The notes beneath the pieces are model-generated. The model did not search any database and was not told the DNA's origin. It was given only the letters and a program-made list of their open reading frames with translations. The position numbers and the translations under genes were made by a program. A stretch of 64,000 nt of DNA from Eledone cirrhosa. Lineage: Eukaryota. The stretch covers positions 1,116,001 to 1,180,000 of the forward strand of contig OZ024743.1 of assembly GCA_964016885.1 (NCBI GenBank). The letters are read 5' to 3'. Shown in pieces: positions 3,226-44,672 of this stretch; the first letter of the stretch is position 1; every line of letters begins with the position of its first letter.

Positions 3226-3411
3226 TGGATTGGCAGTATTGGTAGAGTGTCGGGCGCCATGCTTTGAAGCATAGAGTTACCTCCCTTTATGATCTGAGTT
3301 CAAATCCCGCCGAGGTTAACTTTGCCTTTCATCCTTACGGGGTCGATAAAATAAAGTACCAGTAATGCCAGTGCATAATTGCTGGCCTGGTGCCAAAAGT
3401 AGAAACAATTA
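3226..3411 (+). mobile_element. tRNA-derived SINE (abundant family S1)
   Basis: A-box TGGCAGTATTGG, B-box GAGTTCAAATCC, body gcctttcatccttacggggtcgataaaataaagtaccag, tail aaagtagaaacaatta; about 11 copies in the window. Confidence 0.9.
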
Positions 3412-3515
3412 TGTTATTTATTACATAACTAATAAGCTCTGTAGCCTACATAGAGCACTCTTTTTTCCTGTACCTTTCTGACGGAAATACTTCATTTACA
3501 CACACACACACACAT

Positions 3516-3545
<30 letters not shown>

Positions 3546-3548
<3 letters not shown>

Positions 3549-3692
3549 ACGAAGAAAGGGTGGTAAGCAACCAGGTGGACCATAACGCACACCATAGTAC
3601 TCAATATTTAGGGTAGTAGAATGGGTAATAGGGAATGAGACAGGACCCCGACGGCTGAGCTCCGGCCGTTTCGACAGCTAGATCCGAACGTT

Positions 3693-3751
<59 letters not shown>

Positions 3752-3912
3752 GGAAAATGTATGACCCCGACGGCAGAGCTGAAGCCGTTTCGACGAAACG
3801 GCTTCAGCTCTCCTGTCGGCCTCATACTTTTCCTTTTTCCCACTCTACTACCCTAAGTATTGAGTACTCTGGTGCGTTTTGGTCCATCTGGTTCCTTACC
3901 ACAATTGCTTTG

Positions 3913-3914
<2 letters not shown>
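3546..3914. mobile_element. Two family A elements (3546-3700 and 3750-3914)
   Basis: Shared ~100 bp tail ending at (TA)n plus a fold-back centred at or near the HHR GAAA. Confidence 0.8.
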
Positions 3915-3960
<46 letters not shown>

Positions 3961-3997
3961 TGAAATTTCCATTCTTTAGAAATCATCAGGAATCAAT

Positions 3998-4050
3998 GAG
4001 ATTCCTGATGATTTCTAAAGAATGAAACAGTTGTAGTCCTGTAGAATCTC
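3998..4050 (+). ncRNA. Type I hammerhead ribozyme, family H
   Basis: GAGATTC CTGATGA tTTCtaaaGAAt GAAA CAG ttgtagtc CTG TA GAATCTC: 7-bp stem I, 4-bp stem III, GUA site. Confidence 0.85.
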
Positions 4051-4069
4051 ATCTATATATATATATATA

Positions 4070-5010
4070 TAAATGAGACGTATAGAGATTGTTTTAGCAA
4101 GAAGCTAACGGCATTCTATAACATATATGCGACTATAACGTCAAGATGGGAAAAGTAGTTAACGAAAGATTTAGGAAAAATAACTCAAACTCATCTCAAA
4201 AGAGAATCAGGATACAAATTCATCCACAGAATTTAGTAAAATCCATGGAAAAATCTATAGACCTTTAACTCATGATAAAACAAAGTTTGAAACACTTATC
4301 CTTCAATTTGGAATAACATCAAATGCTCTGTATAGTCTTAAAAGACTATTTCATGAAAACTTTCAGTGGAGATGGTCACGGTTGGAATATCATTCATCAG
4401 CAGAGCTCAACAGAAAACCAGGGCTCTCACAGTAATATAGTCCGAAAAAGGGAATTCTAAAACTGGCTAGTTCGCCTTCATGTGTATTTATGAAAAAGCA
4501 CATGAGGAAAAAACGGGGCTAGTGACGTCAGGATGGAAGTGAATGTTTATTTACAAGAAATAGCAGTCAAATACATTCTGAAAAAAACTCTACAAGGAGT
4601 TCAGCAAAATAGCAATAATTATCACAGTTTTTATGAAAAAACCCGGGATTAGTCACAGATAGTTTAAGCACTCTAGGAAAAGAATCCGAGTATAAATATA
4701 AATGAGACGTATAGAGATTGTTTTAGCAAGAAGCTAACGGCATTCTATAACATATATGCGACTATAACGTCAAGATGGGAAAAGTAGTTAACGAAAGATT
4801 TAGGAAAAATAACTCAAACTCATCTCAAAAGAGAATCAGGATACAAATTCATCCACAGAATTTAGTAAAATCCATGGAAAAATCTATAGACCTTTAACTC
4901 ATGATAAAACAAAGTTTGAAACACTTATCCTTCAATTTGGAATAACATCAAATGCTCTGTATAGTCTTAAAAGACTATTTCATGAAAACTTTCAGTGGAG
5001 ATGGTCACGG
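4070..5010 (-). mobile_element. Family B retrozyme / PLE pseudo-LTR-like element, 629-bp monomer x1.5, flanked by (TA)n
   Basis: 4072-4381 is repeated at 4701-5010; no ORF; HHR inside. Confidence 0.85.
4325..4406 (-). ncRNA. Type I hammerhead ribozyme, family B
   Basis: Minus strand GCTCTG CTGATGA ATGA..(long loop)..TCAT GAAA TAGTCTT tt AAGACTA TA CAGAGC; AUA site, predicted cut between 4331 and 4330. Confidence 0.9.
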
Positions 5011-5142
5011 TATATATATATATATAAATCTGTATGTATTATATATATATATATATATAAATCTGTATGTATTATATATATATATATATATATAGATATA
5101 TATATATAATACATACAGATTTATATATAGAGAGAGAGAGAT

Positions 5143-5195
5143 GAGATTCTACAGGACTAGAACTGTTTCATTCTTTAGAAATCATCAGGAATCTC
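5143..5195 (-). ncRNA. Type I hammerhead ribozyme, family H copy 2
   Basis: Near-identical reverse complement of 3998-4050. Confidence 0.85.
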
Positions 5196-5264
5196 ATTTA
5201 GGAATAGGAAATTCAAATACATATTTGTATACATCTATGTTCGAAGCTAAATTCTAATTCTATT

Positions 5265-5341
<77 letters not shown>

Positions 5342-5344
<3 letters not shown>

Positions 5345-5870
5345 AATAGAATTAGAATTTAGCTTCGAACATAGATGTATACAAATATGTATTTGAATTT
5401 CCTATTCCTAAAGAAATACGGTATGTTTATAAATAAACATTTAGAAAGACATAGCTATGAAAGACACAAGCAGCAAACGCCCACACAGCACTGCTCGGCA
5501 GAAGCAAGAGGGACAATCGTCGATGTATTTTGAACTCAACTGGTCCTCGTCAAGACGATCTCTCCCGTTTTTACAACTTCCGCGCACTTTGAAAACAGGC
5601 GCAAATATATAGATTTTTCGTGTGTGATTAATCTCATTTGCATATGAAGCTGTATAATTTGGCTCAACTTAATATAGCATAAAATTAGAATTTAGCTTCG
5701 AATATAGTTGTATATGTATTTGAACTTCGTATTTCTAAAGAAATACGGTATGTTTATAAATAAACATTTAGAAAGCCGTTGCTATGAAAGACACTGGCCG
5801 CTAACACCACACAACGGTGCTCGGCAGAAGTAAGAGGGACAATCGTCAATGCATTCAAACTCAAGCAAAT
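5342..5870 (-). mobile_element. Family G element, 333-bp monomer x1.5, with degenerate HHR at 5516-5559
   Basis: aattagaatttagcttcg at 5350 and 5683; minus strand ATCGTC tTGACGA GGAC..GTTC aAAA tacaTC GACGAT (6-bp stem I, two core substitutions). Confidence 0.65.
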
Positions 5871-5984
5871 TCCAATGGTCAGTTATCTAGCCAGATAATA
5901 AACTTCACATCTCTTCCACTTCAAATCATCCATTGTCAGGGCTTTGCATAAGTCATGCATATGAATAAACTTTAATATATAATT

Positions 5985-6280
5985 ACGCGGTGTTTGATTA
6001 AATAGAATTAGTCTCTTAGTTGGGATTTTTAAAAACCCTCTGAATGGAAAAAAAGGATGAGTATTGACGTACATAGGACATGAACCCACAACTTTGGTTT
6101 GCCTAACGGTAGTACATAATGGTAACACATTGGTTCGGCAAACCAAAGTTGTTGATTCGTGTCCCTTGTTCGTCAATACTCATCTTTTTTTCCATTCAGA
6201 GATATTTTTTTTAAATCCCATCTCAGAGACTATTTCTATTTAGTCAAGTACTGCGTAAGCACATGTTACTACCTAGTTTA
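5985..6280. mobile_element. Fold-back element with tRNA-like head
   Basis: Arms ~5985-6105 and ~6139-6258 are imperfect inverted copies; tRNA-like TGGTAACACA-TTGGTT cggc AAACCAA-..GTGGGTTC (consensus of arms). Confidence 0.6.
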
Positions 6281-6296
6281 TATATATATATATATA

Positions 6297-7215
6297 GTAT
6301 AAAGTATGCCCATAGAATCATTTGATAATATATATACACCATATCCTCTCCCAATTAGCATAATCAACCACACAAAAAATCAATTAAACCAGGCTATAAG
6401 ATTAAAAGGCACCTATGAAGAAATAGAGGATAAATAAACGACAGCAATTTATTCGTGATCAACCGCTATAGAATATCTACCCAACATTTCAATAGCACGT
6501 GGAAATCGATTAAATATACCGTCAACCTTACACAATTAGGTAGAAAATTAAAGTTAGAAGAAAAAATGCATATACACATACCAGGATTACGTTTCTACCC
6601 TCAGGGTTTCGTTCGCTTTCGGAAATATCCTATCAAGGATAAAATCTCGAGCTTCGAACTCATCAGGAAACAAACTCATTCGGACAAAGAATTTTCTTAA
6701 GTGATCCCCGCCAGAAACGAATTCAAAATGGCTAAGAACTGTGACGTGGCAGTGGTCAAGTCAGAAAGAATGTGATTGGTGGCTTACGGCGAGTGGGCAG
6801 GTTGCTAAAAAGCGCAGCCCAATATGGCCCAAATTGCATCTCAAACTTATGGTAGATTATCAAATATAAAGATTTACATATACACAAACTAGACAATGTC
6901 ACATATATATATGTTTTGGCAACCATTCACGATGTGGCTCAATGTTGAATTAGTAAATTAAATAATCAGAGCAATATACTAGAAAGTATGTCCATAGAAT
7001 CATTTGATAATATATATACACAATTTCCTCTCCCAATTAGCATAATCAACCACACAAAAAATCAATTAAACCAGGCTATAAGATTAAAAAGCACCTATGA
7101 AGAAATAGTAGATAAATAAACGACAACAATTTATTCGCGATCAACCGCTATAGAATATCTACCCAACATTTCAATAGCACGTGGAAATCGATTAAATATA
7201 CCGTCAACCATACAG

Positions 7216-7220
<5 letters not shown>
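6297..7220 (-). mobile_element. Family C retrozyme / pseudo-LTR-like element, 682-bp monomer x1.35, in (TA)n
   Basis: aaagtatg.ccatagaatc at 6301 and 6983; ~235 bp repeated; non-coding. Confidence 0.85.
6591..6671 (-). ncRNA. Type I hammerhead ribozyme, family C
   Basis: Minus strand GTTTC CTGATGA GTTCG..CGAAC GAAA CCC tga GGG TA GAAAC; canonical core, GUA site. Confidence 0.92.
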
Positions 7221-7260
<40 letters not shown>

Positions 7261-7282
7261 AGATATATAATATATATATATG

Positions 7283-7346
<64 letters not shown>

Positions 7347-7352
7347 TATATG

Positions 7353-7427
<75 letters not shown>

Positions 7428-7503
7428 ATTATATATATATATTATATATATATATATATTATATATATATATATTATATATATATATATTATATATATAT
7501 ATA

Positions 7504-7534
<31 letters not shown>

Positions 7535-7535
7535 T

Positions 7536-7698
7536 ATAACGAAGGAAGTGAGGTAAGGAACCAGCTGGACCATAACCCACCAGAGTACTCAATACTTTGG
7601 GTAGTAGAGTGGGTAATAGGAAAATGTTCAAGACCCCGACGGCAGAGCTTAAGCCGTCGAAACGGCTTGAGCTCTGCCGTCGGCGTCTTGAACATTTT

Positions 7699-7701
<3 letters not shown>
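7536..7701. mobile_element. Family A fold-back element
   Basis: ~40-bp inverted arms centred on gccgt-cgaa-acggc, plus an ~80-bp tail; (TA)n on both sides. Confidence 0.85.
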
Positions 7702-7776
<75 letters not shown>

Positions 7777-7842
7777 GAAGAGAGAAGAAACATTTAGATA
7801 TAATTAGTAATAAAATGTATCATACCTAAACTGTTCCTAAAT

Positions 7843-7930
7843 TCCTCGACTACGTAGTTTCGTGGCATAAACAAAAACAATATATCAAAGATATAGAGTC
7901 CTTGCGAGGTCTGCCGACTTATCAAGAGGA
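7843..7930 (-). ncRNA. Hammerhead ribozyme with U3-A8 variant core, family D
   Basis: Minus strand TCCTC TTGATAA GTcGGCA..TGCCAC GAAA CTACGTAG TC GAGGA; palindromic stem III, GUC site. Confidence 0.8.
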
Positions 7931-8433
7931 TACCTCATTTTACTAGTCTCAAGAACGCGTCTACACGACGTGAGAAAGAATCCCAAAAGGCGGAGGGGGA
8001 GATAGTCACGCGATATAACGGTCGAGAAACAGAGCTAAGCCTCTTATAACCACGAAGAAAATACCACGGAGGCGGAGGGGGTATTCATATCGAGGCCGCA
8101 GAAGAGGTAGTGAAGAAGGCGAGAAGTGTGAGTAATGGAAGCTTTCCAGTTGTCCCCACACTTCAAAGATTGCTCGACCAGAGGGAGTTATTAATATATT
8201 TAAAAACACACAGATACATGCGGACACACACATATATACATGAATGCATCCGCACCCAACTGTGAGTTAAGGGTGCCAACTTCACCGATGTTGCTCAATG
8301 AATGACTGGGACAGACCAATTCAGTTTGAACCAGACTGAACCAGTATCAGAGTTAAAAATACATTATGAAGAGAGAAGAAACATTTAGATATAATTAGTA
8401 ATAAAATGTATCATACCTAAACTGTTCCTAAAT

Positions 8434-8521
8434 TCCTCGACTACGTAGTTTCGTGGCATAAACAAAAACAATATATCAAAGATATAGAGTCCTTGCGAGG
8501 TCTGCCGACTTATCAAGAGGA
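8434..8521 (-). ncRNA. Hammerhead ribozyme with U3-A8 variant core, family D copy 2
   Basis: Same sequence as 7843-7930, 591 nt away. Confidence 0.8.
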
Positions 8522-9756
8522 TACCTCATTTTACTAGTCTCAAGAACGCGTCTACACGACGTGAGAAAGAATCCCAAAAGGCGGAGGGGGAGATAGTCAC
8601 GCGATATAACGGTCGAGAAACAGAGCTAAGCCTCTTATAACCACGAAGAAAATACCACATATTTGTATTTATATATATATATATACATATATAGGTGCGT
8701 TTAAAACACGCACACACACATATACTCCCACATATATGTGTGCATGTGTATGCGCACGCATGTATGTGTGTGTGAATGTTTGTATGTATGTGTGTGCGAA
8801 CGTAGAGCTAGCATGGCGTATTTGTCAGTTTGTTTTTGTTTTACTTATTCAAGCTTGATGTGATTGCGATGAGTTCGTACATGAAAACTAAAGATTTAAA
8901 TGTACCCTGCTGATGTGTACATCTCTGTATATATAAGGGCACATACACTTTTCTATTCTTTCAATGTTGTTGGAAGAATGGTGTAACATTTAGCGGTACC
9001 AGAATGCATATTCATTTTTATATTTATCTTTAGAATAGGGAACACAATCTCAGTGTTCTACATACCTATTTCTTCCCGAAGAGTATTTCCCATCTGAATA
9101 ATTTTCCAAAGCTATATACATCTGTAACAATGAGAGTGAGCAATCCTATACAGTGAATAAGAAAGGGATAACTTTTCACTCTTTTTTAATTTTGTTTAAT
9201 TTTGTTTTCGTTTTGTCAGTGTGTGTGTGAGGATTTTGTGTTGAAATAATTTTTTTGGGAAGCATTAAACGTATATATTTTGTATCTTATATATTTTTCA
9301 CAGTTTATTGAAAGGGGGAAAGACTGCACCCATATCCTTAAAAGAAGGTTTCTGAAATTGATTAACCACGGATCATTTTTTACCTCAGACTGGATATCCT
9401 ACGCGTGTCTCTTTTGCAAGAGTGGACCCTGCTAAATTATATCCAAAGCACCGAGCAGAAACCAAGAGAAATGTAAGGCAAACGTCAACCACTGCTATCT
9501 TAACACTCTGGAAATGTTTTCAAAAAGTGTGAACTCTTCTCTTCTTAGTTGGACCAGGATTCACCCCTCCCAGAAACTGCTACGCTGACGGTGATATTTT
9601 GTTTATTGTCAGTTCTGATGACAAAACAAAATGTGTTGTAGAATAAATTAAATGACGATCGGCCTGCTATTTCCTCCACAGTACCAACTGAGTTATTTTA
9701 TTTGAATCGTCATGAACATGACTGAACAGGAGAGACGTAGTGGTTCTATTAATTAA

Positions 9757-12005: not shown

Positions 12006-12277
12006 ATTCTCTCTCTGTCTCTCTCAGCGTGTCTCTTTATCTCTATTCTGCTTCTCACATTTGTACCTCAAACTCCTCCTCCTTTAGTTTTCTTTGATCT
12101 TCACCCTCCTCTCTGCCCACACTCACTCTCCGGTCACGTAAACTGTATTTTATTACTCATATATGTAACAGGCTAAATAAAAGGAGAAAGGAGAGGAGAA
12201 AACGAATGGTGTTAAATGAACAATAAATTTTTTTTTAAATTACGCGTAAAATGCCGCAGGCATTCATTCCTTACTTT

Positions 12278-12634
12278 TACCAGTTATCCATTATCTCACC
12301 AACCGTTCAGTACATATCTTTACACAGTTACCAGTTATCCATTATCTCACCAACCGTTCAGTACATATCTTTACACAGTTACCAGTTATCCATTATCTCA
12401 CCAACCGTTCAGTACATATCTTTACACAGTTACCAGTTATCCATTATCTCACCAACCGTTCAGTACATATCTTTACACAGTTACCAGTTATCCATTATCT
12501 CACCAACCGTTCAGTACATATCTTTACACAGTTACCAGTTATCCATTATCTCACCAACCGTTCAGTACATATCTTTACACAGTTACCAGTTATCCATTAT
12601 CTCACCAACCGTTCAGTACATATCTTTACACAGT
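12278..12634. repeat. Minisatellite, 51-bp unit x7
   Basis: taccagttatccattatctcaccaaccgttcagtacatatctttacacagt repeated head to tail without spacers. Confidence 0.97.
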
Positions 12635-12929
12635 TAGCAGTGAAGTTATCAGTTCTGTGCCAGAAAAAAAAATGATACAAAATATCATAAGGTGAGAAAT
12701 TAGTTTCCCTTCATTAGGCATGATTATGTTATTGAGTGGCCCTATCATTTACGAAGAATTTAATATTTTTAAATGTTGCTCACGTAGCTCACCTGTAATA
12801 TACAACATTACATCACTTATACTTATAGGCGGCGGTGGCTGTCAATACGAACAGTCATTTCTTTACTCAGATTCGGCCCTGTTTATCTAATATCTGACTA
12901 AGGAAACAAAGCAATACGTTCATACATAG

Positions 12930-18636: not shown

Positions 18637-19385
18637 GACACGGGCGCCCGGGCAGGGATCCCTCAAAAAAGATTTGCCCTAGATGCATGCGTCACGAAGA
18701 AACCGTTGCGCACGCATTGGTGCAATGTCCAGGCGTGGCTGATCTGTGGGGCTACGCCGAACGACTGCTGTCGCGGGTGGCGCCCATTCAATTGACCGCC
18801 GAGTCCGTGATGACAATCAAACCGCCTCCCCTCTTTACAAAGGAAGCAAAGGCGGTTTTTCTGTGCGTAATAGCCATGTTGAAAGAGGTTGTTTGGTGGA
18901 CACGATTGAAAGGTCTGAGGTCAGGCAACTTCCTCTCTGGCCATAGTCTGGTCTACTTCTTCCGATATCACTTCGGAAGAATGGAGAGAGAGGTGCTTGG
19001 CCACAGGCAGTTTTATGAAAGGTGGGTGATAGTGGCGAGAATGGCTCGTGTAAATGGGCCTTCTCTGTATACCATCCTGTAGGTAAAGAAGTAAAGGAGA
19101 GGGGAGCACCTTCTCCGTGTGCTCCCCGGGCAAAGGATTGCACACTTTTTCGGGGGGGGGGGTGCAACCCCCATCACGTCCCCTCCCTTTTGAGGTTATT
19201 TTCGATTATTTTCATTTTATACCCTTTTTACTCGATTGTATGTAAACTCCCCCTCTGTATTTGTCCCTTCTTTTTATGCCTTTATGGTAAATAAAGAAAT
19301 ATATCTATTATACCTGTATGTAAACTCCCCATTTGTATTTGTCCCCTTCTTTTGTGCCCTTGTGGCTAATAAAGAAAAATTTATC
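18637..19385 (+). mobile_element. 5'-truncated Tx1-type LINE with a duplicated 3' end
   Basis: ORF 18687-19082 is homologous to the ORF2 C-terminus of the 21248 element; 20-bp TSD tatctattatacctgtatgt at 18617-18636 and 19302-19321. Confidence 0.9.
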
Positions 19386-20067: not shown

Positions 20068-20191
20068 TATTTACACTCTGTTTAGCTCTACACCTCTCTA
20101 CAGACGTGAACCTAAACATCAAGTGCTCACCTGTGTGAACCTACAATAACTTTACTTTACACTTCCTGGAGATATATATATATATATATAT

Positions 20192-20820
20192 AATTAAAAT
20201 TTACGTGGAAATAAAAGACAAAAATGTACCTATATTTTCTTCAAAGTCCCAATTGCAGTTTCGACGAATCCGTTTACACCGATTTCTGTACTGTAAAAAG
20301 GCATCATCTCTGTGAGGTTAATAAGGCTTGTCAAAAGACCTCTAAAAATAGGACTGTTTCTTGATGCGTTCATAGCAAGTGTGAAATTCTCGCGAGGCGG
20401 AGGGAGAAATTTACACAACATACTGTGGTCACAGAAGGGTAGTTAGGTGGTCAGTGAGCGAGGAAGATATTTGCTAGAAAAAGCAGTTAATACACTCCCG
20501 GTTAACTCTACCATAGGGAAGTTTGGGACAATATAATAATGAAATACACACACACATATTCATATGTATATGTATGTGTGTGATGTCCGCCTTAACAAGT
20601 TTTGCACGATGACCGAAAGAGTTAAAATAATCAAAATAATTAAAATAACTCAAAAATCAGAGCTATTTATCAAATTAAAAATACGAGGAAATAATAGACA
20701 AAACTATACATATTTTGTCTTCAACGTCCCAACTGCAGTTTCGCCGAATCCGTTTGCACCGTATACTGCACTATAAAAATACATCATCGCTGTGAGGTTA
20801 ATAAGGCTTATCAAGAGAAC
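20192..20820 (-). mobile_element. Family N element, 480-bp monomer x1.3, with U3-A8 HHRs at 20246-20339 and 20726-20820
   Basis: Minus strand gttCTC TTGATAA GCC..GGC GAAA CTGCAG TT GGGAC; repeat period 480. Confidence 0.75.
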
Positions 20821-21247: not shown

Positions 21248-23677
21248 CTACAGGCTGATATAGAGAGAAGGCCCATTCACTCGGGCCATTCTCGCCACTT
21301 TCACCCACCTTTCATAAAACTTGCTGGGGTACAGCACCTCTATTCCCATCCTGATTCTTCTTCCAAAGTGGTATTTGAAAAAAAGAATCAGTTGTTGGCC
21401 GGAGAGAAAGGTGTCTGACCTCAGCCCTTTCAACCTTGTCCACCATATAACCTCTTTCGCCATAGCTATCACACAAAGGAAAACCACCTCTCCTTCGTTT
21501 TTGAAGGAGGGTGGCGGTTTGATCATGACAATGGACTCGGTGGTCAACCGGATTGGTCCCACCCGCGACAATAGTCGTTCTACATAGCCCCACAGGTCAG
21601 TGACGCCCAGGCACTGTATGAATGCGTGGGCGACGGTTTCTTCGTCTCGCACGCACCTCGGACAGATCTTTTTTCCAGGGTCCCTTCCCGGGCGCCCATG
21701 TCTGTAGAGCTTGTCTCGAACTGGTAGAGCTCCTCGGTAGCACTGCCAGGCCAGGGACTTTTGGAAGTTGTCCATCGGTCCCGGGCGGAAGGTCCTACCG
21801 AACAGACTGGCCAGTTCATCTTCCTCTACGCCTAGAGTTTCACCGAGCGCGTCGTCGCACTTGCTGCAGATCAACCCTCTATAGAATGACGAAGTGGAGT
21901 CTCCACTGATCGCCGGGTCCGCCTGCCAGAGGGATGTGAGCGCCTGAGCACATTCGATGTGCCAGTCGCCCATTTTCCTCGGTCTTTGCTTGACCCAGGA
22001 CTGCAGCTCGGTCAGCGAGACGAGTCGTGGGAAGGCTCTCCTCACGAACGGGGCCCACACCGGTTGTCCGGTGAGGAATACGTAGAGATGCCGCAGCCTG
22101 AGCGCGTGTTTGCGCATCGGCAACCACGCCATCCCCCGCCCTCCGTTAGAAGGGTGTTGGCAGCAGATGGATCTTCTCAGCAAAGGAGCCCGCCTCTTCC
22201 AAAGGAATCGGAAGAGCGCGCGTTCCATTTTGGCGAGCGTTTTGGCTGGACAATGCACGACGGTCAAGCGGTAGTAGATGGCGGACGCTATAAAAGTGTT
22301 CGCCACCTCCGCTCGACCTTTCAAGGATAGTTTGCTCTCGGCCCACTTCTGGGTGAGTGCAAACACCTTTTCCGTCACTTCGTTCCAGTTCTTCTCCACC
22401 TGGAGGTCCGGACCAAACCAGACCCCGAGCAGCTTTATCGGTCCTTCTGTCCAGCGTCCGACGACGCCATCGGAAGGCATCGGTTTGCCTCTCCATGATC
22501 GGAGTTGCAAACCGATGGACTTGTCCCGGTTCAGCTTCGCTCCTGTGAAACTTTCGTATTCCTTCAGTAAGGTGCCGACTTCCTCGATTTGCGAGGCGCT
22601 CGACACCATTACTGTCACGTCGTCGGCGTAGGCCGACGCCGCTTTCCGCAGTCCCCGTTCCAGAGGGATGCCCTGCAATAGCTCCAACTTTCGCAGTAGT
22701 GGCTTGAGAGTCAGTACGTACAGAAGGGAGGAGAGAGGGCATCCCTGTCGAATGGATCGCGTAATATGGAACGGCTCAGAGAGGTAGCCGTTCACCTTGA
22801 CCCTTGAGCAGATGTTGCTGTTGTGCATTGCAGCAATCCAGCCCCTGAACACGGGTCCGAAGCCTGCCGCCTCGAGCACCGCATCCAGGTAACGATGGTC
22901 AACCCTATCGAAAGCCTTAGACTGATCCAAGTTGATCAGGGCCCCACCGAAGCCGGGTTTACACCCTACCCTCTCTATGATGTATCGCATGAGGTGGAGG
23001 TTGTCGTGTATGGACCTGGTAGGGATTGCGCATGTCTGCGCTTCTCCCACAAGGTTCTCGACGACAAGCGCCAGCCTCTTTGCCAAAATCTGTAACTCTG
23101 TGTTTAGCAGAGTTATGGGCCGGAAGTTGCCTATGTCATCCCTCTTATTCTCGTCCTTCCTGATTAGTGTGACCACGACCCCGGTTACAGAACTGGGAAT
23201 TCTCCCGTTCTGTTGCCAGTTGCAGTAGACCGCTTCCAGGAGACCGGAGAATAAGTCCAGCATTGCTACGTAAAATTCGTAGGGTAGACCGTCGAGACCT
23301 GGAGATTTGTGTTTGTCGCATTGGCTCAGCGCGTCCACTATCTCAACGGCTGAAATCGGCTTTTCGCAGAACTTTGCCTCGCTGTCCGAGAGTCGCGGTA
23401 GGCCGTCTAGGTATGGACCGAAATCGATAGCCCCTCCCGGCGCGCCGCCCCTCCCGAACAGTTGAGCAAAGTGCCGCTGAAAGGCAGCACACATCTGCTT
23501 CGGCTCACGTATCAAGCGTCCGTTTTGGTCCTTCAAAGACCGAATCGTGGACTTGTTGCCACTTTTTGCCTCCGTCACTCGGGCCCAGCTAACAGCTTTG
23601 GCTCCTTCGTTTCCCAGAGCACGTATTTTGCTTCTGACAACGCAGCCCTCGTGCTTTGCGTCGAAGAACTGGTCCAA
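21248..23677 (-). pseudogene. Tx1 ORF2 reverse transcriptase and C-terminal domain (frameshifted from the endonuclease)
   Basis: KSPGLDGLP, NFRPITLLN, LDQSKAFDRV, IRQGCPLS, YADD, CPRC..ETVAHAFIQC. Confidence 0.95.
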
Positions 23678-23726
23678 GGCCGTTCTCGTTGCTTCTAATT
23701 GCCTCTTCTACTTTATCTACCAGTTC

Positions 23727-24650
23727 CTATTCGGTCTTATTTCTATCTAACACTAATACTATACTAAAACCTATCGAGTCTAATCTAACTGCCCTCTTGA
23801 GAGAGTACCACCATCTGTTGTTGACAATGGCCCCTGTCAAGTACTGTTTAACTAAAATGCTAATCCGTCTACTGTAGGCTTTGCTTGTCGGTAACGACAA
23901 GTTCAGCTTCCAGTAGCCGGGTCCTTGTCTATGGGTTCTATCAAGGTTGGCCATGCAGGTCACTAGTTTGTGATCTGAATAGGCAACCATGAACATTTGT
24001 GGACAGCTTAACATGTCCCTATCCTTATTTCTAATTAGAACCGTATCTAGGTACGATCTAGATGTTCCGCTACGATTACTCCACGTCCACAGTGGCGCAG
24101 TCGGAAAATCTAGTCGATACCTATCGGCCAGGTCAAATCGGTCGATTAACTGTTTGAGGCTGTTACACCCCCCTTTATCGGGACATGCTACCACATAGTT
24201 CCAACGTGCATCTAGGATTCCATTCCAGTCCCCCACTAAAAGCAAGGAGCGGGACGTTCCCAGAAAAGTCTCTAGACGTTTGAAGAAGTCTGGCCGCGGT
24301 GTCCCGGATGGGGCATATGCGGCCACCAGCCTGAAGGCTCCACCTTCACTACCGTCAACGTCTAGGACCACCAGTCGACCCTCCGGGTCCAGATGTACCG
24401 TCTGTGTTACGAGGCCCAGGTGTTTCCGCAGCAAAACGGTAACTCCGCCCCCACCCCCCGGTTGACAGAGAGATGCGTAGATATCAAAGTCATCGAAGAT
24501 GGGGGCCAGCTGTCGCTCGCTGTGGATCCTGGACTCGCAAATGGCTACCACATCCATACTGTGCGACCTGAGGTCGTTTAAGAGTTTGCCCTGTTTCCAG
24601 GGCATCCCCAGGCTGCGTACGTTCACACACCCAACTCTTATATTGGCCAT
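23727..24650 (-). pseudogene. Tx1 ORF2 apurinic endonuclease domain
   Basis: MANIRVGCVNVRSL, AICES, VGDWN, SYLD, YSDH, GPGYWKLN. Confidence 0.93.
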
Positions 24651-26363
24651 GTTGGTGGGGTGGGGACGGAGATGTTTGGTGGGGTGGGGACTGGTGGGAT
24701 GGGGGTGTCTGGAGTGGGGAGACATTTGAGAAGGACGCAGTTGAGTGGTTTCACGCAGGAATTCCCCACATCCTTCTCAAATGTTTCTTTTAGGGACCTA
24801 TAAGTTTGTATAGGGACCCTAATCAGTTTTAGGTTCAGCTTTTTGCTATTTTTGATAGAGTGGGCGAAAGTTTTCGTGATGGTCTCCATTTGTGTTTTGT
24901 TTTCAGTGTTTATGTAAGTGTCAGCGTAATTTTCTTGTGTTGTGTTTGTTTTTGTCTGTAGTTCTTGTGTGTGCTTTCGTTTTGTTGTAGGCGTTTTGTT
25001 TTCAGGGGGTGGGGGTTTTGTTTGTGATGTTTTTGTTGTTTGTGTTGGTGGTTGTATGTTTGTGGTAGTGTTTGCTTTTTTTTTGCTTTTGTGATGTCTT
25101 TTCTTTCTTTTCGAGCGATGGGATTCCCCCTCGTCTTCACTGGGTGATGGCGAGATAGCCTCATCTGTTGTATCGTCTGTGTGATTGGGGAGGGGTATGT
25201 CTTTGGGAGCTGTTGTGTCTGTATGTGATTTTGCAGTGGTTTTAGGTGGAGTGGGGTTGGGTGGGACTGTGTTTGTTGTGGTTATTTTTGTGTGTTGGTG
25301 TTGTTGTTGTGGTGGTGTTGGTGGTTGTGTTGTTTTGATGGGTGTCGGCAGAAGAGCCTTTTTTTTATTCATTAATTTAGGACAGGAAGCCCTCAGGTGA
25401 CCCCTGCTAAAGCAATGGTAACATGAAGGCCGCCTACCCTCAACCGAAAAATTTATGTAGGTGAGTCCGTCCAGGAGTACACGTTGTGGGATCATAGCTA
25501 TTCGCTCTGGGCTCATTTGCACCAGAACTTCAATGCTAGTCCCATTGAATACATCTCTGGGGGACTTTCCTACTGACAGTATTCTGTCTTCATCAAAATT
25601 GATGAAGCCGCACAGTATCCACCATATGTTCACCTTTGGTGTGACACTCGTGATTTTGATCTTTTGTGTCCTTTTTCCCATGTATGTAGGGAAAAAGGTG
25701 TACAGGTTGGATACAATTGGCGACACAGAGTAATTTTGGGCCGTCAATTGATCCTTCATGAGTACCGAAATACTCCCAAAAAGTTTGCTTCTTTGAATGA
25801 ATGCAATATCATTCATTGAATTTTTGAAAACCAGTTCAATTTCTTTCTGTGACAATTGGACTGGTTTTCGGGTAGAATTGGAAACTGTCCTAAAAACTAT
25901 CGTTTTGAGAGCAGTTTCCTTGCGAATTTCTACCGGAGAATTGATGCTGAAAGCACCATTTTTTTCGAAAGTGACATATCTCCTAGCGTCCTTTAAAAGT
26001 TGTTCAGCATTTGTTATGTCGAGATATATCAGTCCTCCTTTTTTTGAACTGTCTTTGCAAAGGAGATTTTTGGTTTCTTTGTGGAATTATCCGTGCTGGT
26101 GGTGTTGTTATTATTGTTGTTATTGTTGTTGTTATTCTTGTTGTCACCGATGTTGATATTATTCGTATTTTCCTTGGTGTTGTTGTTGTCTTTGATGCTG
26201 GTGTTATTGGTGTTGTCTTTATTTTTTCTTTGTTGTTGTTATCATTGTTGTTTTTATCATCATTATTGGTGCTGCTGTTATTTTTGTTGTCATTGAACTG
26301 TTTGGTGTCATTTGTGTTGTTTGGATATGAATTTGTTTTTGTATTTTCATTTCGTCTTTCCAT
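24638..26363 (-). pseudogene. Tx1 ORF1 gag-like protein (frame break near 26000)
   Basis: CYHCFSRGHLRASC zinc knuckle, then a Pro/Thr/Lys-rich tail; Asn/Thr-rich N-terminal piece at 26004-26363. Confidence 0.8.
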
Positions 26364-26699
26364 CTCTATAGTGAAGAAGACGATGTTGACTGCGAGCTTT
26401 GTAGTCTTACCGCCTCTCCACCACCATTATCGTTGGACGCAGCGTTCATAACGTAATCAAACTTTTACAATATTTTTTCCAAGATTCGATGGAGAAAAGA
26501 TTTATCCAAACGAATATTTCGCCCCTGTAGGGGCGAAAATGAGTTGACCCACCACCTGAAGGTTCAGACGGGGGGGGGGGGTCAGGTTACACAATAATAT
26601 AAAATTTAACTGAAAACTCACGTTTTTTTCTTACATAAATTAACGGAAACTTCTCCGCGAAGTTACATACGTCTGATAGAGAGAGGGAGAGAGATAGAG

Positions 26700-28128
26700 A
26701 GATAGGTTTGTTTCTTTTATTTGCCACCAGGGCATCAAAAGTGGGACAAGTACAATGGGGGGAGTTTACAAAACAAGGCGTCCTCAATAAGGAGGAGGCA
26801 ATAACAATATATAAAAATAAAATAAAATATAACAAAAAATAAAATTTATAACAAAGTCCTCAATAGAGAGGAGGCGCCTTGGGGGGTCGCACACACCCCC
26901 GAAAAAAGTGTGCAACCCTTCTACTCAGGAGCACAGAGAAGGGGTGCTCCCTTGGTCTTTCATCTTCCTCACCTATAGTCTGATGTAGAGTGAAGGCCCA
27001 TTCACACGGGCCATTCTCGCCACTTTCACCCATCTTTCATAGAAACGGCTGGGGTGCAGCACCTCTCTCTCCATCCTGATCCTTCTTCCGAAATGATATC
27101 GGAAGAAACGGACCAGTTGTTGGCCAGAGAGAAAGGTGTCTGACCTCAGTCCTTTTAGACGCGTCCACCATACAACCTCTTTCGCCATGGCTATTACGCA
27201 CAGAAACACCGCCTCTCCTTCGTTTTTGAAGAGGGGAGGCGGCTTGATCGTTACAATAGACTTGGTGGTCAACCGGATCGGTCCCACCCTTGACAGCAGT
27301 TGTTCGACATAGCCCCACAGATCGGCAATGCCCGAGCAGTGTACCAATGCGTGTGCAACGGTTTCCTCGTCGCACATGCATCTGGGACAGATCTTTTTCG
27401 ATGGGTCCCTACCCGGCCGCCCGTGTCTGTAAAGCCTTTCTCGAACGGGCAGCGCCCTTCTGTAGCATTGCCAGGCCAGGGACCTCTGGAAGTTATCCAT
27501 GGGTCCCGGGCTGAATGTCCTACCGAACAGGTTGGCCAGTTCATCTTCCTCCATGCCTAGGGCTTCTCCGAGGGCGTCGTCGCACCTGCTAACCACCAGC
27601 CCTCTATAGAATGACGAGGTGGATTCTCCACTGACAGCCGGGTCCGCCTGCCAGAGAGCCGTGAGCACCTGGGCACACTCGGTGTGCCAGGCGCCCAGTT
27701 TTCTCGGTCTTTGCTTGACCCAGGATTGCAGCTCGGTGAGTGAGACGAGTCTGGGAAAGGCTCGCCTCACAAACGGGGCCCACACCGGTTGACCGGAGAG
27801 GAATACCTGAAGGTGCCGTAGCCTTAATGCGTGTTTACGTATCATTAGCCACGGCATCCCCAGCCCTCCTTTCGAAGGGTGTTGACAGCAGATGGATCTC
27901 CTCACCATAGGAGCACGCTTCTTCCAAAGGAATTGGAAGAGTGCGCGCTCCATTTTGGCGAGCGTTTCCCTTGGGCAAGGCACAGCGGTCAGGCGGTAGT
28001 AGATGACGGACGCTATATAAGTGTTCGCCACCTCCGCCCGACCTTTCAGGGACAGTTTGCACTCGGCCCACTTCTGGGTCAGTGCAAACACCCTGTTCGT
28101 CACCTCACCCCAGTTCTTCTCCACCTGG

Positions 28129-28130
<2 letters not shown>
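26700..28130 (-). mobile_element. 5'-truncated Tx1-type LINE; ORF2 C-terminus at 26973-28124
   Basis: 383-aa ORF highly similar to the C-terminus of 21248-23677; bounded by (GATA)n and (GA)n. Confidence 0.93.
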
Positions 28131-33110: not shown

Positions 33111-33114
<4 letters not shown>

Positions 33115-33602
33115 CGAGAACAAATCCAGGATGCAGTTGCAGGAAGCCGGATGAATGCCCATTGCAGGGTAAATGTAACACCAAATCTGTTGTTTATGAG
33201 GCTAAAATAACACCGGTAATCAACAACCAGCCAGCCAGGAGTGAGCGATATGTCGGTATGACCCAGGACAGGTTTAAAACCAGATTTTACTCACATGTCG
33301 CTTCTTTTAAGCACTCCGATAAACGAACATCAACGGCCCTCGCAAGTAAGGTGTGGGAATTCAAAGATAGTAACCTCCCGTACTCTATCGATTGGTCTAT
33401 CTTAGACCATTCGAGGGAGTACCAAAGGGGCACAAAGAATTCTTCTTTGTGTACCACAGAAAAATATAGGATTTTGCTAAACTTGAGAGCCACTTCTGCT
33501 TGCCTAAACACAAAGACTGAGATCTTCAGATGTTGTCCTCATCTGAAATCACATCTGATCTGTAACTGGATTGACACTCCTATGATAAATCAACCGCCTT
33601 GA
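33111..33602 (+). pseudogene. Penelope-like element GIY-YIG endonuclease (5'-truncated at (TA)n)
   Basis: CSCRKPDECPLQGKC, VVYEA, RYVGMT, FKTRFYSH, LCTTEK, LNTKTE, CCPH. Confidence 0.9.
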
Positions 33603-39276: not shown

Positions 39277-41400
39277 TCATCATCATCACCGTTTTACGAC
39301 CGTTCTTCCATGCTAGCATGGGTTAGACGGGTTGTCCTGTTGTGGGCAGTGTCTGGTCGGCTGACCATGCCTTGCTCATACAGGAACTAATTTTGGCTTG
39401 ATTTCTACAGCTGGATGCCCTTCCTAACACCAACCCCATTTACAGTGAGTGCTGGGTGCTTTTTCCGTGGCGCCTACACGTTCACTTTACAGTGTAGGCT
39501 GGGTGCTTTGTTGCCGTGGCACCTCCAGGACCACCTTGCAGTGGGAGGGTGTGGGGGCATATTTTCTATATGCTTCAGCTTGTACCCATGGGAGTTCGGG
39601 TACTCTGTATTACTGCGTGACGCCAGAGGTCACGGTCGTGTGTCATCGCCTTTGAGAGGTGTAATTTGGTAAGGTCGGCTTTTATCACCTCATCCCAGAT
39701 CTTCTTGGGTCTCCCCACTCCGCGGTTTCCATTGACTTCTAGTGCTCTGCACCTTTTTATGCAGCTGTCATCCTTCATACGCATCACATGTCCATACCAA
39801 CGCAACCGCCTCTCCTGCACACAACATTTGATTCCTCTTATGCTCAGTCTCTCTCTCAATTCATTTATGCTTTGTCGTTCGCGTATATTACTATTACACA
39901 TCCATCGGAGCATGCAGTCTTCGTTTCTTTCTAATCTACCTAATTCTTCCCCCTTCAGCGCCCAGGTGTCACTACCATGTAACATTGCAGTTCGTATACA
40001 CGCATCATACAGTCTGCCTTTCATTTTGAGGGAGAAGCCATTTGCAGCTAGCAGTGGTAGTAGTTACCTAAACTTCTTCCATCCCGTTCTTACCCTAGTT
40101 ATTGTACTTTCTGAACACCCACCGCCGCTGCTAATTCGGTCACCTAGGTAGCAGAAGCTATCTACTGTTTCTACAGAGCCCTCCCAGAAATTGGTGGTAC
40201 TTGTTTCCTGTGGCTGTTTGCTGCTTGCTGTCCCAGCACAGCTGCTGCATGTGAAGCCTACATTCTTAATTAAGCTTCCTGAGATCCCGCTACATCTTTT
40301 GTGTACCCATTGTTTGCATTTGGGGCAAAGAATGGAGTTCCTACCTACACCTCTCCTACATACTGAGCAAGGCCATTTCCCTGAGGGTTCTGTTTTCTAG
40401 TCTACTTACAAGGACCTTAGTCTTTGTCAGGTTGACTTTGAGATCCTTTCTTTCTAGTCCCTGCTTCCAAGTTTGGAATTTCTTCTCTAGTTCTACCATA
40501 GATTCAGCAATGAGTGCGAGGTCATCTGCATACAGGAGTTCCCATGGGCATCTGGTCTTAAATCCTCCGTTATTGCCTGCAGGACTATGATGAACAGGAG
40601 GGGGCTAAGAACAGAGCCCTGGTGGACACCAACCTGTACGCTAAATTCCTCGCTATACTCATTGCTAATCCTAACTTTGCTGACTGCTCCCCTATACATG
40701 GCTTGTACAGCATTCACAAGCCATTCATCTACTCCTAGTTTTCTAAGAGCCCACCAGATTATAGCATGTGGAACTCTGTCAAAGACTTTCTCGAGATCTA
40801 CGAATGCCAGGTAGAGTGGCTTACTTTTAGCTAGGTACTTTTCCTGTAACTGCCTCACAAGGCAGAGGGCATCAGTGGTGCCTCTTCCTGGTACAAACCC
40901 AAATTGCATCTCATCTAGTTTCACCCGGTCCCTAATCAACTGTGCTTTCACTCTTTCTGTTACTTTCATGACCTGGTCCATCAGCTTTATACCTCTATAG
41001 TTTCCTCTATCTAGTGCATCACATTTACCTTTGTAACAGTTGACAATGATGCTACTGCACCAATCTTTTGGTATGACACCTTCTAGTATTACCTGGTTAA
41101 CAATACGTGTGGTTATAATGTGACCTACAGACCCAGATGCCTTCAGCATCTCGGCAGCTATACCCGATGGACCGGTTGCCTTCCCCATCTTCATATCTTT
41201 GATTGCCTTACTTACTACGCTGCTGCTGACTTGTACTGCTGGCCCCTCTATAGGGTCTACTTGGGGTAGGGTCTCTTCTTCCCATGCATTCTCCTCATTT
41301 AGTAATCTATCATAATGGCTCTTCCATGCATCTTTCTTCTCAGCACTTGTGAGAGCAAGCTCACCTTTATAATTCCGGATACACTTCTCTCCAATGACAT
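39277..41400 (-). mobile_element. 5'-truncated RTE-clade LINE, frameshifted
   Basis: KATGPSG, NYRGIKL, QFGF, FVDLEKVFDRV, GVHQGSVLSP, CPWELLYADDL (~40520-40552), RLRWYGHV; (GAT)n tail. Confidence 0.93.
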
Positions 41401-42023
41401 ATATATATATTAAAATAACAGATTAAAGTTTAAGCAAATAATCGCTGCTTTCACCCATAGCAGGATCTTCAGAAGATCCCGTTATGGGTGAAAGCAGCAA
41501 TTCTCTTAGGAGTTTAGTCTTCACATTTATTATTATTACTATTATTATTGTTATTACTATATATATATATATGTGTGTGTGTGCGCGCGTGTGTGTGTGG
41601 ATGTGTGGCTGTGTGTGTGTGCGTGTGTGTGTATCTGTGTGTGTGTATGTAGGGAGAGAGAGAGAGATGCATACATATGTATATATATATATATATATAC
41701 GTGAGTGTGTATTGATATTAATGTAGCTATTCTAAGGGTAAGACATGGTGTTATAAGTTTTACTTGTTGCAAATATTGTCAGATATATATAGGTAGAGAG
41801 ACGGAATAAAATTATAATGCAGCTGTGAATAGCTTTTAAGGACAATTTGCATAGCAGGTAACTGCCATTTTTTGATATACTAGACCACCCTTGACCCGTT
41901 GGCTCAAGTCCACTTCAAAATATATTTTTAAATTGTGTTCACTTAAAAATAGTTTTTGAATAATTAAAATATACACAGACATGTATATAATGTGAAATAA
42001 AACTGGAAGGCCAATATATATAC

Positions 42024-42097: not shown

Positions 42098-42105
<8 letters not shown>

Positions 42106-42863
42106 CGTAAAATAAGAAAATTATAAAATTAACTTACTTACTAAAATTTCATTCCAACTAATTAGTTTCTGAAAGGGAATAAACATAGTTTCCGAAGAAA
42201 CGTACGGAGAAGCCTTTCGTCATCAGGGAAGTCTATTCTCAGCTAAGTTTCCAGGCAATACGTGGACACAGGGAACTTATACAAAAATAATTCAGTGGAT
42301 GGAAAAAAGCAAAGCGTGGACTAAATTCCAAGCCATTGAAAAAATCACTGCCTACTGCGTCGGTGGCAAATTCAAAAGAATCAGTCACGTGACATCGAGG
42401 TCAATCAGTGAAGAGTGGTTTGTTAAGAAGACAGCAGCCGGACCGTTACTATAGTAGCAGTTTTGGCCAATTTTTGCTCGACAAAATAATTTGGAGATAA
42501 TTATAAAGAATTAGTATATCTAGTAACATATATATACACAGATGCATACTTATGTTAGCAAATATATAGGTTTTGTCTTAGTAACTTTGTGGTTCAATGC
42601 ATGGGGATGCAGAACAATAATATGAGAGACGTAAAATAAGAAAATTATAAAATTAACTTACTAAAATTTCACTCCTAAAATTCCACAGGAGTGAAATTTT
42701 AGTAAGTAAGTTAATTTTATAATTTTCTTATTTTACGTCTCTCATATTATTGTTCTGCATCCCCATGCATTGAACCACAAAGTTACTAAGACAAAACCTA
42801 TATATTTGCTAGCATAAGTATGCATCTGTGTATATATATGTTACTAGATATACTAATTCTTTA
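42098..42863 (-). mobile_element. Family E element: 524-bp monomer plus partial repeat and ~175-bp inversion
   Basis: agagacgtaaaataag at 42101 and 42625; inverted from ~42685 to 42863; (TA)n on both sides. Confidence 0.85.
42152..42230 (-). ncRNA. Type I hammerhead ribozyme, family E
   Basis: Minus strand TTCC CTGATGA cGAAAGG..CCTTTCa GAAA CTAATTAG TT GGAA; palindromic stem III, GUU site. Confidence 0.82.
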
Positions 42864-42878
42864 TATATATATATATAT

Positions 42879-43970
42879 GAAGAAGAAGTTTATGAAACGG
42901 AAATGCGGGTATAAAGAATTTACTAGGTAACAATTGTTTCTATAGTGTGTGGGTTACCTATACCTCGCTATTTGTATAATATAAAAATATTATCATAAAT
43001 CGTAGGTACACTGTAAGAGAACACACCATGTCGTCAGACCTTTATGGTAGAATGATAGTCTTAGGGTTCAAGGCTGTCAGAGTAGTAGAGATTGTATAGA
43101 AGAAAATGTTTTGGCAGCAGTTAGCTAAATGAGGCGTGTTAGGGTTGGCGGGGGAAGTAAATTCTTCTAGTGGTGTTGTTTGGACAAAATTTAGTTAAAG
43201 GGGTCAATGTAGTACAGAATTATAGACAAGTTATTGGGGCTATTATAGTAGCAGGATATTTCTAAAGGGGTCTAAAAAATAGTGTTTAGTGCTATTATTA
43301 TAAAAAGCGATATCGTGTGTATAAACATATAAAAATATGAAATAAAAATAATAAAAATTTGCAAATGGTGGTGTAAAAAGATAACATTATATGCATTTAA
43401 AAAAAGAAAAAGTCGTTTTTAAACGATGGTTACAGTAAAGTGAACGTTCAATTTTGCTGTTCAAAAGTTTGTTTTCTGACGTTAAAATGCAGTATATCTC
43501 CATATTGCATAATTTACAAAATCGGTGATTTTGCCTTATGCTGGCGCATCGCAATAATTTGCCAATCAAGGGAGAATGCTTGATTGTTCTTCCGAAGCTG
43601 CCAGGCTTTATCGGCGAGGGTTGTTACGGAGCGCATTTTCTCATGCTTGATCGAAGATCGATGTTGGTATAGGCGAGCTTTGAAAGATGTTGCGGTACAT
43701 CCGACGTAATACCATTTGTTGGTTCCGGAATTTATTGTACATCGGTAGACAATATTGCGTGTTAGGCAATAGTTATTCAATGGGCACGAACTTGGTTTAG
43801 TGCAGTTACAGTTATTTTTATGTTTTGCAGTAGTATCCTGGATAGTTTGGTGGGGTTGTAGCTGCGTGTTAGTGCGTTGTATGTCGCCATGCTGGTGCGC
43901 TGTGTCATTAGGGATGTACTTATTTAGTATTGTTGAGTTTAGTTTTTTAATTAGTTGTTCTATGTTAGGT
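42879..43970 (-). mobile_element. 5'-truncated Penelope-like element: GIY-YIG ORF end plus pseudo-LTR
   Basis: CNCTKPSSCPLNNYC, IVYRC, YYVGCT, FKARLYQH, CKLCNME, LLNSKIE, CNH (43387-43830, frameshift near 43560). Confidence 0.9.
42925..43041 (-). ncRNA. Type I hammerhead ribozyme in PLE pseudo-LTR, family O
   Basis: Minus strand AGGT CTGACGA cATGGTGTG..CACACTATa GAAA CAATTG TT ACCT; ~70-nt stem II insert. Confidence 0.8.
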
Positions 43971-44498: not shown

Positions 44499-44672
44499 TC
44501 AGGACCCCGACGGCTGAGCTCCGGCCGTTTCGATAGCTAGATCCGAACTGTCGAAAGAGCTGGAGCTCAGCCGTCGGGTCCTGAATCTGTTCATATTACC
44601 CATTTTACTACCCCCAGGTGTCGAGTACTCTGGTGCGTTATGGTCCACCTAGTATTTAAAACACCCTCATTG

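What the first reader, a model, noticed from the sequence alone, without database searches (positions are those of the whole stretch)
4070..8658. Non-coding 333-682 nt monomers present as 1.1-1.5 tandem copies: signature of a circular RNA template
Seen: B (period 629), G (333), C (682), D (591), and further on N (480) and E (524) each consist of one monomer plus a partial second copy. They have no ORF and one HHR per monomer, and the repeats in B and D look identical by eye, so the insertions are recent. Inference: HHR cleavage releases monomer RNA that circularises, and reverse transcription running past one full circle gives the 1.x structure. The alternative is ordinary PLE partial-tandem formation from read-through transcripts.
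Basis: partly seen in the sequence, partly recalled or inferred. Interest (0 to 1): 0.8.

Follow-up and report, generated by a model that had tools for sequence, protein, structure and literature searches.

The report
Retrozyme cluster with Penelope insertion marks
These repeats are copies of small non-coding jumping elements that carry a predicted self-cutting RNA motif and sit at hundreds to thousands of places in this animal genome, and the mutations their repeat units share suggest that a Penelope-type enzyme re-reads one RNA unit, probably a circle, although the 1.5-copy shape alone does not prove that.

Summary
The repeats are real (periods 629, 333, 682, 591, 481, 524). Each is one copy of a dispersed, non-coding hammerhead (HHR) family on the minus strand, with a fixed 3' end in (TA)n and a variable 5' end. 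1.x copies are a minority: in length-unbiased samples 44/70 (B), 37/69 (D) and 44/70 (E) are under one unit, while arrays reach about 7 units. D and E often have an inverted arm starting at a second fixed site, the Penelope-like element (PLE) 'tail' mark. None of 209 loci is joined to the tested PLE ORF; an abundant Hydra-clade PLE is a candidate driver. Units within a locus share rare mutations far above chance, cross the predicted cut site without scars, and 4 of 329 arrivals stop exactly at it. This supports re-reading of one cleavable RNA unit; a circle is the simplest template (about 0.55), but uncut linear multimers are not excluded, and HHR-less PLEs also form partial tandems. These are non-LTR retrozymes, i.e. 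non-autonomous PLEs; the circle model is already published (2014, 2020). This scan found the same pattern before on other DNA of this genome.

The parts
4070..5011 (-). Element B: 629-nt monomer plus 313-nt 5' partial (1.50 units); 3' end at 4070 abuts (TA)n
   Evidence: 176 exact 3' ends in the genome
4325..4406 (-). B type I HHR, canonical core, predicted cut after 4331
5345..5864 (-). Element G: old 333-nt monomer plus partial (1.56 units)
5515..5560 (-). G HHR remnant, two core positions mutated; intact in 4 of 15 G loci
   Evidence: sequence
6298..7220 (-). Element C: 682-nt monomer plus 241-nt partial (1.35 units)
6590..6672 (-). C type I HHR, predicted cut after 6596
7774..8658 (-). Element D: 591-nt monomer plus 293-nt partial (1.50 units)
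   Evidence: 2392 exact 3' ends
7843..7930 (-). D HHR copy 1, U3/A8 core, palindromic stem III, predicted cut after 7848
8434..8521 (-). D HHR copy 2, identical; an HHR-to-HHR 591-nt RNA is predicted from this locus
20190..20818 (-). Element N: old 481-nt monomer plus partial, two U3/A8 HHR-like motifs
42100..42675 (-). Element E direct arm: 524-nt monomer plus partial that begins exactly at the predicted cut+1
   Evidence: 1004 exact 3' ends
42152..42230 (-). E type I HHR, palindromic stem III, predicted cut after 42156
42688..42865 (+). Element E inverted arm: begins at cut+1 and ends at the second fixed site (monomer position 122)
42876..43970 (-). 5'-truncated autonomous Hydra-clade PLE (GIY-YIG end plus 3' region with an HHR about 50 nt from the 3' end); candidate type of driver, partner status not shown

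Best explanation
B, G, C, D, N and E are copies of non-coding, hammerhead-bearing repeat families (non-LTR retrozymes) that carry Penelope-like insertion marks, and they are likely pasted into (TA)n by a Penelope-like RT/endonuclease that re-reads one RNA monomer, most likely an HHR-cut and re-ligated circle. Shown: dispersal, fixed 3' ends in (TA)n, variable 5' ends, inverted arms from a second fixed site in D and E, no join to the tested PLE ORF, and rare variants shared by all units of a locus. Inferred: transcription of a locus with two HHRs, self-cleavage, ligation, cutting of both target strands, internal priming at one or two TA-rich sites of the RNA, and RT running round the unit until it drops off, which gives 0.04 to about 7 units; 1.1-1.5 is one part of that range. 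Occasional unligated linear monomers would explain the few arms that stop exactly at the cut.
For: (1) Families: exact 3' end plus TA pattern at 176 (B), 2392 (D) and 1004 (E) places, reversed control 0. (2) Unbiased samples, under 1 / 1-2 / 2 or more units: B 44/20/6 of 70, D 37/26/6 of 69, E 44/25/1 of 70; a 7.x-unit D array (L187). (3) Inverted arms in 41 of 69 D and 48 of 70 E loci, ending at positions 171-173 (34 of 41) and 122-124 (40 of 48), like the two RT start sites and tail of PLEs (PMC11167929). (4) RT must cross the predicted cut: it lies 74 (D), 56 (E) and 261 (B) nt from the 3' end, yet 65 of 69, 65 of 70 and 41 of 70 arms are longer. No indel within 8 nt of the cut in 94/95 (B), 155/155 (D), 37/39 (C), 35/36 (E) crossings. 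(5) Variants seen in one sampled locus only but in both units of one arm: B 7 in 7 of 41 loci, D 17 in 14 of 68, E 19 in 8 of 45; at pair level 11, 38 and 22 against 0.04, 0.15 and 0.77 by chance. This holds with the 5'-truncated unit (3, 6, 11 variants) and across opposite arms (D 16, E 9). At sites covered by 3 or more units, all/some/one: B 2/0/16, D 7/3/46. Common D variants agree within an arm 284 times and disagree 15 times. (6) 4 of 329 arrivals stop exactly at cut+1 against 0.62 expected (P 0.004; 3 loci, P 0.025), and both arms of the window's E do so. (7) Related animal retrozymes give circular RNA in vivo (PMC7229834). (8) A Hydra-clade PLE is abundant, with 725-800-aa ORFs, RWK, DKT and CxCX5C motifs, HHR and (TA)n targets.
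Against: No RNA of these families was examined, so no circle was seen. In the one in vitro PLE system, uncut linear RNA was the main template and HHR mutants inserted normally (PMC11167929). HHR-less Naiad and Chlamys PLEs also form partial tandems and inverted copies (PMC8557442). PLE-type HHRs cleave weakly in vitro (PMC4209133), and 8 of 9 Xenopus retrozyme dimers did not cleave (10.64898/2026.07.22.740005). 'Private' means unique among 82, 99 and 84 sampled loci of families with at least 176, 2392 and 1004 members, so some may be markers of unsampled master arrays. E shows 6 'some' against 4 'all' cases, and C shows 3-of-4 patterns, as DNA-level exchange would give. Arms end more often in the second unit than the first (B 44/70 then 20/26; E 44/70 then 25/26), which is not the constant drop-off of a simple rolling circle. 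The stop-at-cut excess is not significant with a 1-5 nt window and is absent in B (0 of 62). The monomers show no nucleotide match to six full-length Hydra copies beyond simple repeats, so the driver is unidentified.
Confidence: 0.58

Rival explanations
1. Same elements and enzyme, but the template is a linear, mostly uncut multimeric transcript; 1.x copies are 5'-truncated copies of longer arrays, and length is regained by cDNA re-annealing or template jumps between identical RNAs, with no covalent circle.
For: Uncut RNA is the template in vitro (PMC11167929); partial tandems form without HHRs (PMC8557442); arrays of up to about 7 units exist as possible parents; only about 1% of arrivals stop at the cut, compatible with weak cleavage; arms stop more often in the second unit.
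Against: Plain read-through cannot put a new mutation into all units; that was seen in 7 of 41, 14 of 68 and 8 of 45 loci. No unit-specific variant recurred in matching order among the 6 B and 21 D mixed cases (a weak test in such young families). End-to-end jumps at the cut should leave scars, and these are not enriched. Homology-guided re-annealing is not excluded.
Confidence: 0.3
2. Insertions start short, and units are multiplied or homogenised afterwards at the DNA level (unequal crossover, gene conversion), as in satellite birth.
For: Proposed for vertebrate retrozymes (10.64898/2026.07.22.740005); 'some of n' patterns in older C and E loci.
Against: Sharing is already present in the youngest families (B, D; under 0.5% divergence), includes 5'-truncated units and opposite arms, and is mostly all-or-one. 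The shared fraction is lower, not higher, in older E (22 shared/160 single) than in B (11/42) and D (38/135).
Confidence: 0.09
3. The monomers are only the termini (pLTRs) of 5'-truncated RT-coding PLEs, or assembly artefacts.
For: Autonomous PLEs here have the same architecture; PLE ORF fragments lie within the flanks of 8 of 209 loci.
Against: Upstream of a full monomer comes the same monomer again or (TA)n; none of the 8 ORF hits is contiguous with the element; copies have distinct flanks across chromosomes, and the monomer junction stands in contigs of public runs X1-X3.
Confidence: 0.03

Closest known systems
Metazoan non-LTR retrozymes (Cervera and de la Pena 2020, PMC7229834; Li, Clavereau and Pollet 2026, 10.64898/2026.07.22.740005)
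   Same: Non-coding tandem units with one type I HHR each, low GC (0.34-0.42), monomers, dimers and multimers, co-occurrence with PLEs; unit lengths within the 51-972 bp reported for other animals; circle-templated RT already proposed.
   Different: Here most copies are under one unit and 5'-truncated, with fixed 3' ends in (TA)n and inverted arms from a second fixed site; these features were not in the passages read. Circular RNA is not shown here. No pLTR match to the one PLE family tested.
EN+ Penelope-like elements, Hydra clade, and non-autonomous PLEs such as Chlamydomonas MRC1 (PMC8557442; PMC11167929; PMC3846280)
   Same: Partial tandems, head-to-head inverted 5' copy, optional tail from two RT start sites, (TA)n targets, HHR near the 3' end with palindromic helix III (PMC4209133).
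   Different: No ORF; the two start sites are about 115-171 nt apart instead of the 30-40 nt tail; B shows no inverted arm (0 of 70).

Membership tests
Non-LTR retrozyme | Tandem non-coding units without ORF, LTR, PBS or PPT | tested here: met
   No ORF; tandem units. PBS and PPT were not searched for.
Non-LTR retrozyme | One type I HHR per unit | tested here: met
   B, C, D, E, N; G mutated in the window, intact in 4 of 15 loci. That a U3/A8 core can be active is recalled, not tested.
Non-LTR retrozyme | Loci with two complete HHRs able to release a monomer | tested here: met
   Window D; direct arms passing a second cut site in 16 of 70 B, 28 of 69 D, 22 of 70 E loci.
Non-LTR retrozyme | Self-cleavage at the predicted site | tested here: inconclusive
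   Indirect only: 4 of 329 arm arrivals stop at cut+1 against 0.62 expected; both arms of window E.
Non-LTR retrozyme | Monomeric linear and circular RNA in vivo | not testable with these tools
   Needs raw RNA reads or a Northern blot.
Non-autonomous PLE | Fixed 3' end, 5' truncation, partial tandem | tested here: met
Non-autonomous PLE | Inverted 5' copy and tail from a second start site | tested here: met
   D 41 of 69, E 48 of 70, C in some loci; not met for B (0 of 70).
Non-autonomous PLE | Microsatellite (TA)n target | tested here: met
   All 24 distinct B loci and nearly all D and C loci found by sequence alone abut TA runs.
Non-autonomous PLE | Sequence similarity to the terminus of an autonomous partner | tested here: inconclusive
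   None to one Hydra family (6 copies) beyond a short shared 3' motif in D; other PLE families of the genome were not tested.
Hydra-clade PLE (element at 42876-43970) | C-terminal GIY-YIG, RWK, DKT, CxCX5C, HHR, about 3 kb | tested here: met
   Motifs read in the ORFs against PMC8557442 section 11; GIY-YIG E 0.00096, below Pfam's cut-off; no tree was built.

The most novel reading that the evidence does not exclude
In this genome PLE enzymes copy covalent ribozyme-made RNA circles by two-ended rolling-circle reverse transcription, and the insertions record it: all units and both arms carry one template's mutations, pass the ligated cut site cleanly, and rarely stop at it when a linear monomer was used. 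That would be DNA evidence for the unproven 2014 model of how PLE partial tandems arise, with young natural substrates (B, D, E) to test it.
Probability: 0.5. Interest if true: 0.65.

Novelty: new member of a known kind. Interest (0 to 1): 0.45.

Why it matters
Whether PLEs and retrozymes use circular or uncut linear RNA is open: the retrozyme papers propose circles, the only in vitro PLE system used uncut linear RNA. These young, high-copy families give a population record of the template and ready substrates. Searches of the held library showed no cephalopod retrozyme paper and no shared-variant or stop-at-cut analysis; subscription papers and bioRxiv supplements could not be seen. The element class and the model are known, so surprise is moderate.

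Tried and rejected
Rfam found no HHR. Run search: no RNA holder listed. Contigs of X1-X4, kind not on record, cover B throughout but cannot show ends, strand or circles; a junction-spanning read would not prove a circle anyway, because the genomic tandem has the same junction. An apparent pile-up of E 5' ends near the cut in the best-hit set (6 of 21) shrank to 5 of 118 within 5 nt, not significant, in the unbiased set; only the exact-position excess remains. My first guess that the autonomous PLE is Neptune was dropped for Hydra. My note giving its HHR-to-end distance as 74 nt was wrong; it is about 50 nt. Within-locus pLTR identity in six autonomous copies is 96-100% against between-locus medians of 86-94%, but maxima reach 99.6%: not discriminating. 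Circular folding z-scores (B -2.8, D -6.4, C -1.6, E -1.8; 25 doublet-block shuffles) and HHR-region folds were not used as evidence. The host taxon was not tested.
Full report
Observation. Self-comparison confirms the direct repeats. Exact alignments give B 313/313, D 293/293, C 230/241 and G 158/194 identical columns, at 1.50, 1.50, 1.35 and 1.56 units. N is offset by 481 and E by 524. No element has an ORF above 93 aa. Type I hammerhead motifs lie on the minus strand in B, C, D (two), E and N. G's is mutated in the window and intact in 4 of 15 G loci. So every element reads right to left: a 5'-truncated partial unit, then a full unit whose 3' end abuts (TA)n.

Families. The genome (G000, 3.0 Gb) holds many copies: first-look candidates B 2336, D 769, C 4541, E 2800, G 2202, N 889 (not copy numbers). 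Exact patterns of the 3' end plus TA match 176 (B), 2392 (D) and 1004 (E) places, with 0 for the reversed control. B and D best hits are 99-100% alike, E 97-99%, C 93-95%, G and N about 80-86%.

Length-unbiased samples. I took the first listed 3' ends. B: 70 of 176 (C1-C4, the window's own skipped). D: 70 of 2392, one local duplicate (L213) dropped, so 69. E: 70 of 1004, one locus already held skipped. D and E come from C1 only; flanks were 1.5-4 kb and 4 arrays ran off the edge. Direct arms under 1, 1-2 and 2 or more units: B 44/20/6, D 37/26/6, E 44/25/1. A D array of 7.x units exists (L187). The 1.1-1.5 form is therefore one slice of a continuum. Inverted head-to-head arms occur in 41 of 69 D and 48 of 70 E loci and in 0 of 70 B loci; they end at a second fixed site (D 171-173 in 34 of 41, E 122-124 in 40 of 48; C about 115). 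This matches the PLE layout and tail (PMC8557442, passages and section 11 read; PMC3846280, passages) and the two internal RT start sites of the anole PLE (PMC11167929, parts 1-2 of 4 read), with a longer spacing.

Not termini of coding elements. A GIY-YIG fragment in the window belongs to an abundant autonomous PLE (58448 first-look candidates). Six long copies have 725-800-aa ORFs with RWK, DKT and CxCX5C, the Hydra-clade marks, and an HHR near the 3' end. That ORF hit the flanks of 8 of 209 unbiased loci; none is contiguous with the element. The monomers do not match these six copies beyond simple repeats, so the actual partner is unidentified; only this one family was tested.

Template tests. 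(a) The predicted cut lies 261 (B), 74 (D) and 56 (E) nt from the main 3' end, so a cut linear monomer could give only arms that short; 41 of 70, 65 of 69 and 65 of 70 arms are longer. (b) Crossings are clean: an indel within 8 nt in 1 of 95 (B), 0 of 155 (D), 2 of 39 (C), 1 of 36 (E), not above the rest of the monomer. (c) 4 of 329 arrivals stop exactly at cut+1 (D L346, L354; E L285, both arms) against 0.62 expected; P 0.004 by arm, 0.025 by locus; B 0 of 62. Both arms of the window's E and one in L243 do the same. With a window of 1-5 nt the excess is not significant. I read this as weak evidence that cleavage happens at the predicted site. (d) Units of a locus are closer to each other than to other loci (B 0.0024 vs 0.0039, D 0.0024 vs 0.0100, C 0.033 vs 0.054, E 0.017 vs 0.020). 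Variants seen in only one sampled locus sit in both units of one arm in 7 of 41 B, 14 of 68 D and 8 of 45 E loci, far above chance; also with the truncated unit and across arms. Three of the E variants are adjacent and may be one event. With 3 or more units the pattern is all/some/one 2/0/16 (B), 7/3/46 (D), 4/6/87 (E). D haplotypes are uniform along arrays and both arms, and no unit-specific variant recurred in order between loci.

Mechanism. A mutation present in every unit must have passed through a single unit that was then re-read. Plain read-through of a parent array cannot do that. A ligated circle does it with no scar and explains arrays longer than the parent. Homology-guided re-annealing on linear RNA would look the same in DNA, and gene conversion may add to it in older loci. 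Against over-reading: HHR-less PLEs also form partial tandems (PMC8557442); uncut RNA was the template in vitro (PMC11167929); PLE HHRs cleave weakly (PMC4209133, passages); 8 of 9 Xenopus dimers did not cleave (10.64898/2026.07.22.740005, parts 1-3 of 5 read); arms end more often in the second unit than the first. I put element identity at about 0.9, re-reading of one unit at about 0.8, and a covalent circle at about 0.55-0.6.

Known status. The class is the metazoan non-LTR retrozyme, for which circles were shown in coral and other animals and circle-templated tandem cDNA was proposed (PMC7229834, part 2 and Discussion read). The same model was proposed for PLE tandems in 2014 (PMC4209133). 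Searches (listings) showed no report of these families or of the genomic tests above; supplements were not read. Earlier notes of this scan describe the same two-armed pattern for other families of this genome, and one concerns a 591-bp unit, probably D; they were seen after my reading was formed and are not independent support. They call the host a cephalopod, which I did not test.

Verdict. Real, recent (B, D, E) and older (C, G, N) members of a known class. The title's claim is too strong for the 1.x shape, but the circular template is the best single explanation of the population data and can be tested directly. Interest 0.45.

Noticed in passing
window 3960-4056 and 5119-5200: B sits in the TA run between two inverted copies of another small HHR-like element (canonical core, U-U at the base of stem II, 3' end about 10 nt after the cut), read by eye; my scans missed it.
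   Followed up: no
window 5197-5412: Perfect 216-bp tail-to-tail palindrome of G's 3' end around (TA)38, although G copies are only about 85% alike: a recent fold-back or an assembly artefact.
   Followed up: no
window 10815, 11234, 31696, 32095, 32736, 34310, 34700, 44893: Further HHR-like motifs, several in palindromic small elements; the window is dense in such families.
   Followed up: no
B loci L091-L160: Recurrent very short B copies with 5' ends at positions 571 (10 of 68 ends) and 599 (7 of 68); B never has an inverted arm, unlike D and E.
   Followed up: partly
L101: B copy whose partial begins 4 nt from the cut and whose full unit has a 19-nt deletion across the cut; the only scar in 95 crossings.
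   Followed up: partly
window 21248-26086, 18637-19308, 26680-28130: LINE with gag-like, endonuclease-like and RT (RVT_1, zf-RVT) ORFs, plus truncated copies.
   Followed up: no
window 33111-33602: Second GIY-YIG-like PLE 3' fragment beside a TA run; no Pfam hit at E 0.1.
   Followed up: no
window 39575-41422 and 45320-47290: Broken RT fragments of other LINEs.
   Followed up: no
window 3226-3420 and about 10 more places: About 200-bp SINE-like repeat, 77-98% alike.
   Followed up: no
window 3538-3924, 7528-7703, 44500-44684, 57343-57575: Small palindrome-forming repeat family inserted in TA runs.
   Followed up: no
window 12277-12641: 51-bp unit in 7.2 copies, 99% alike.
   Followed up: no
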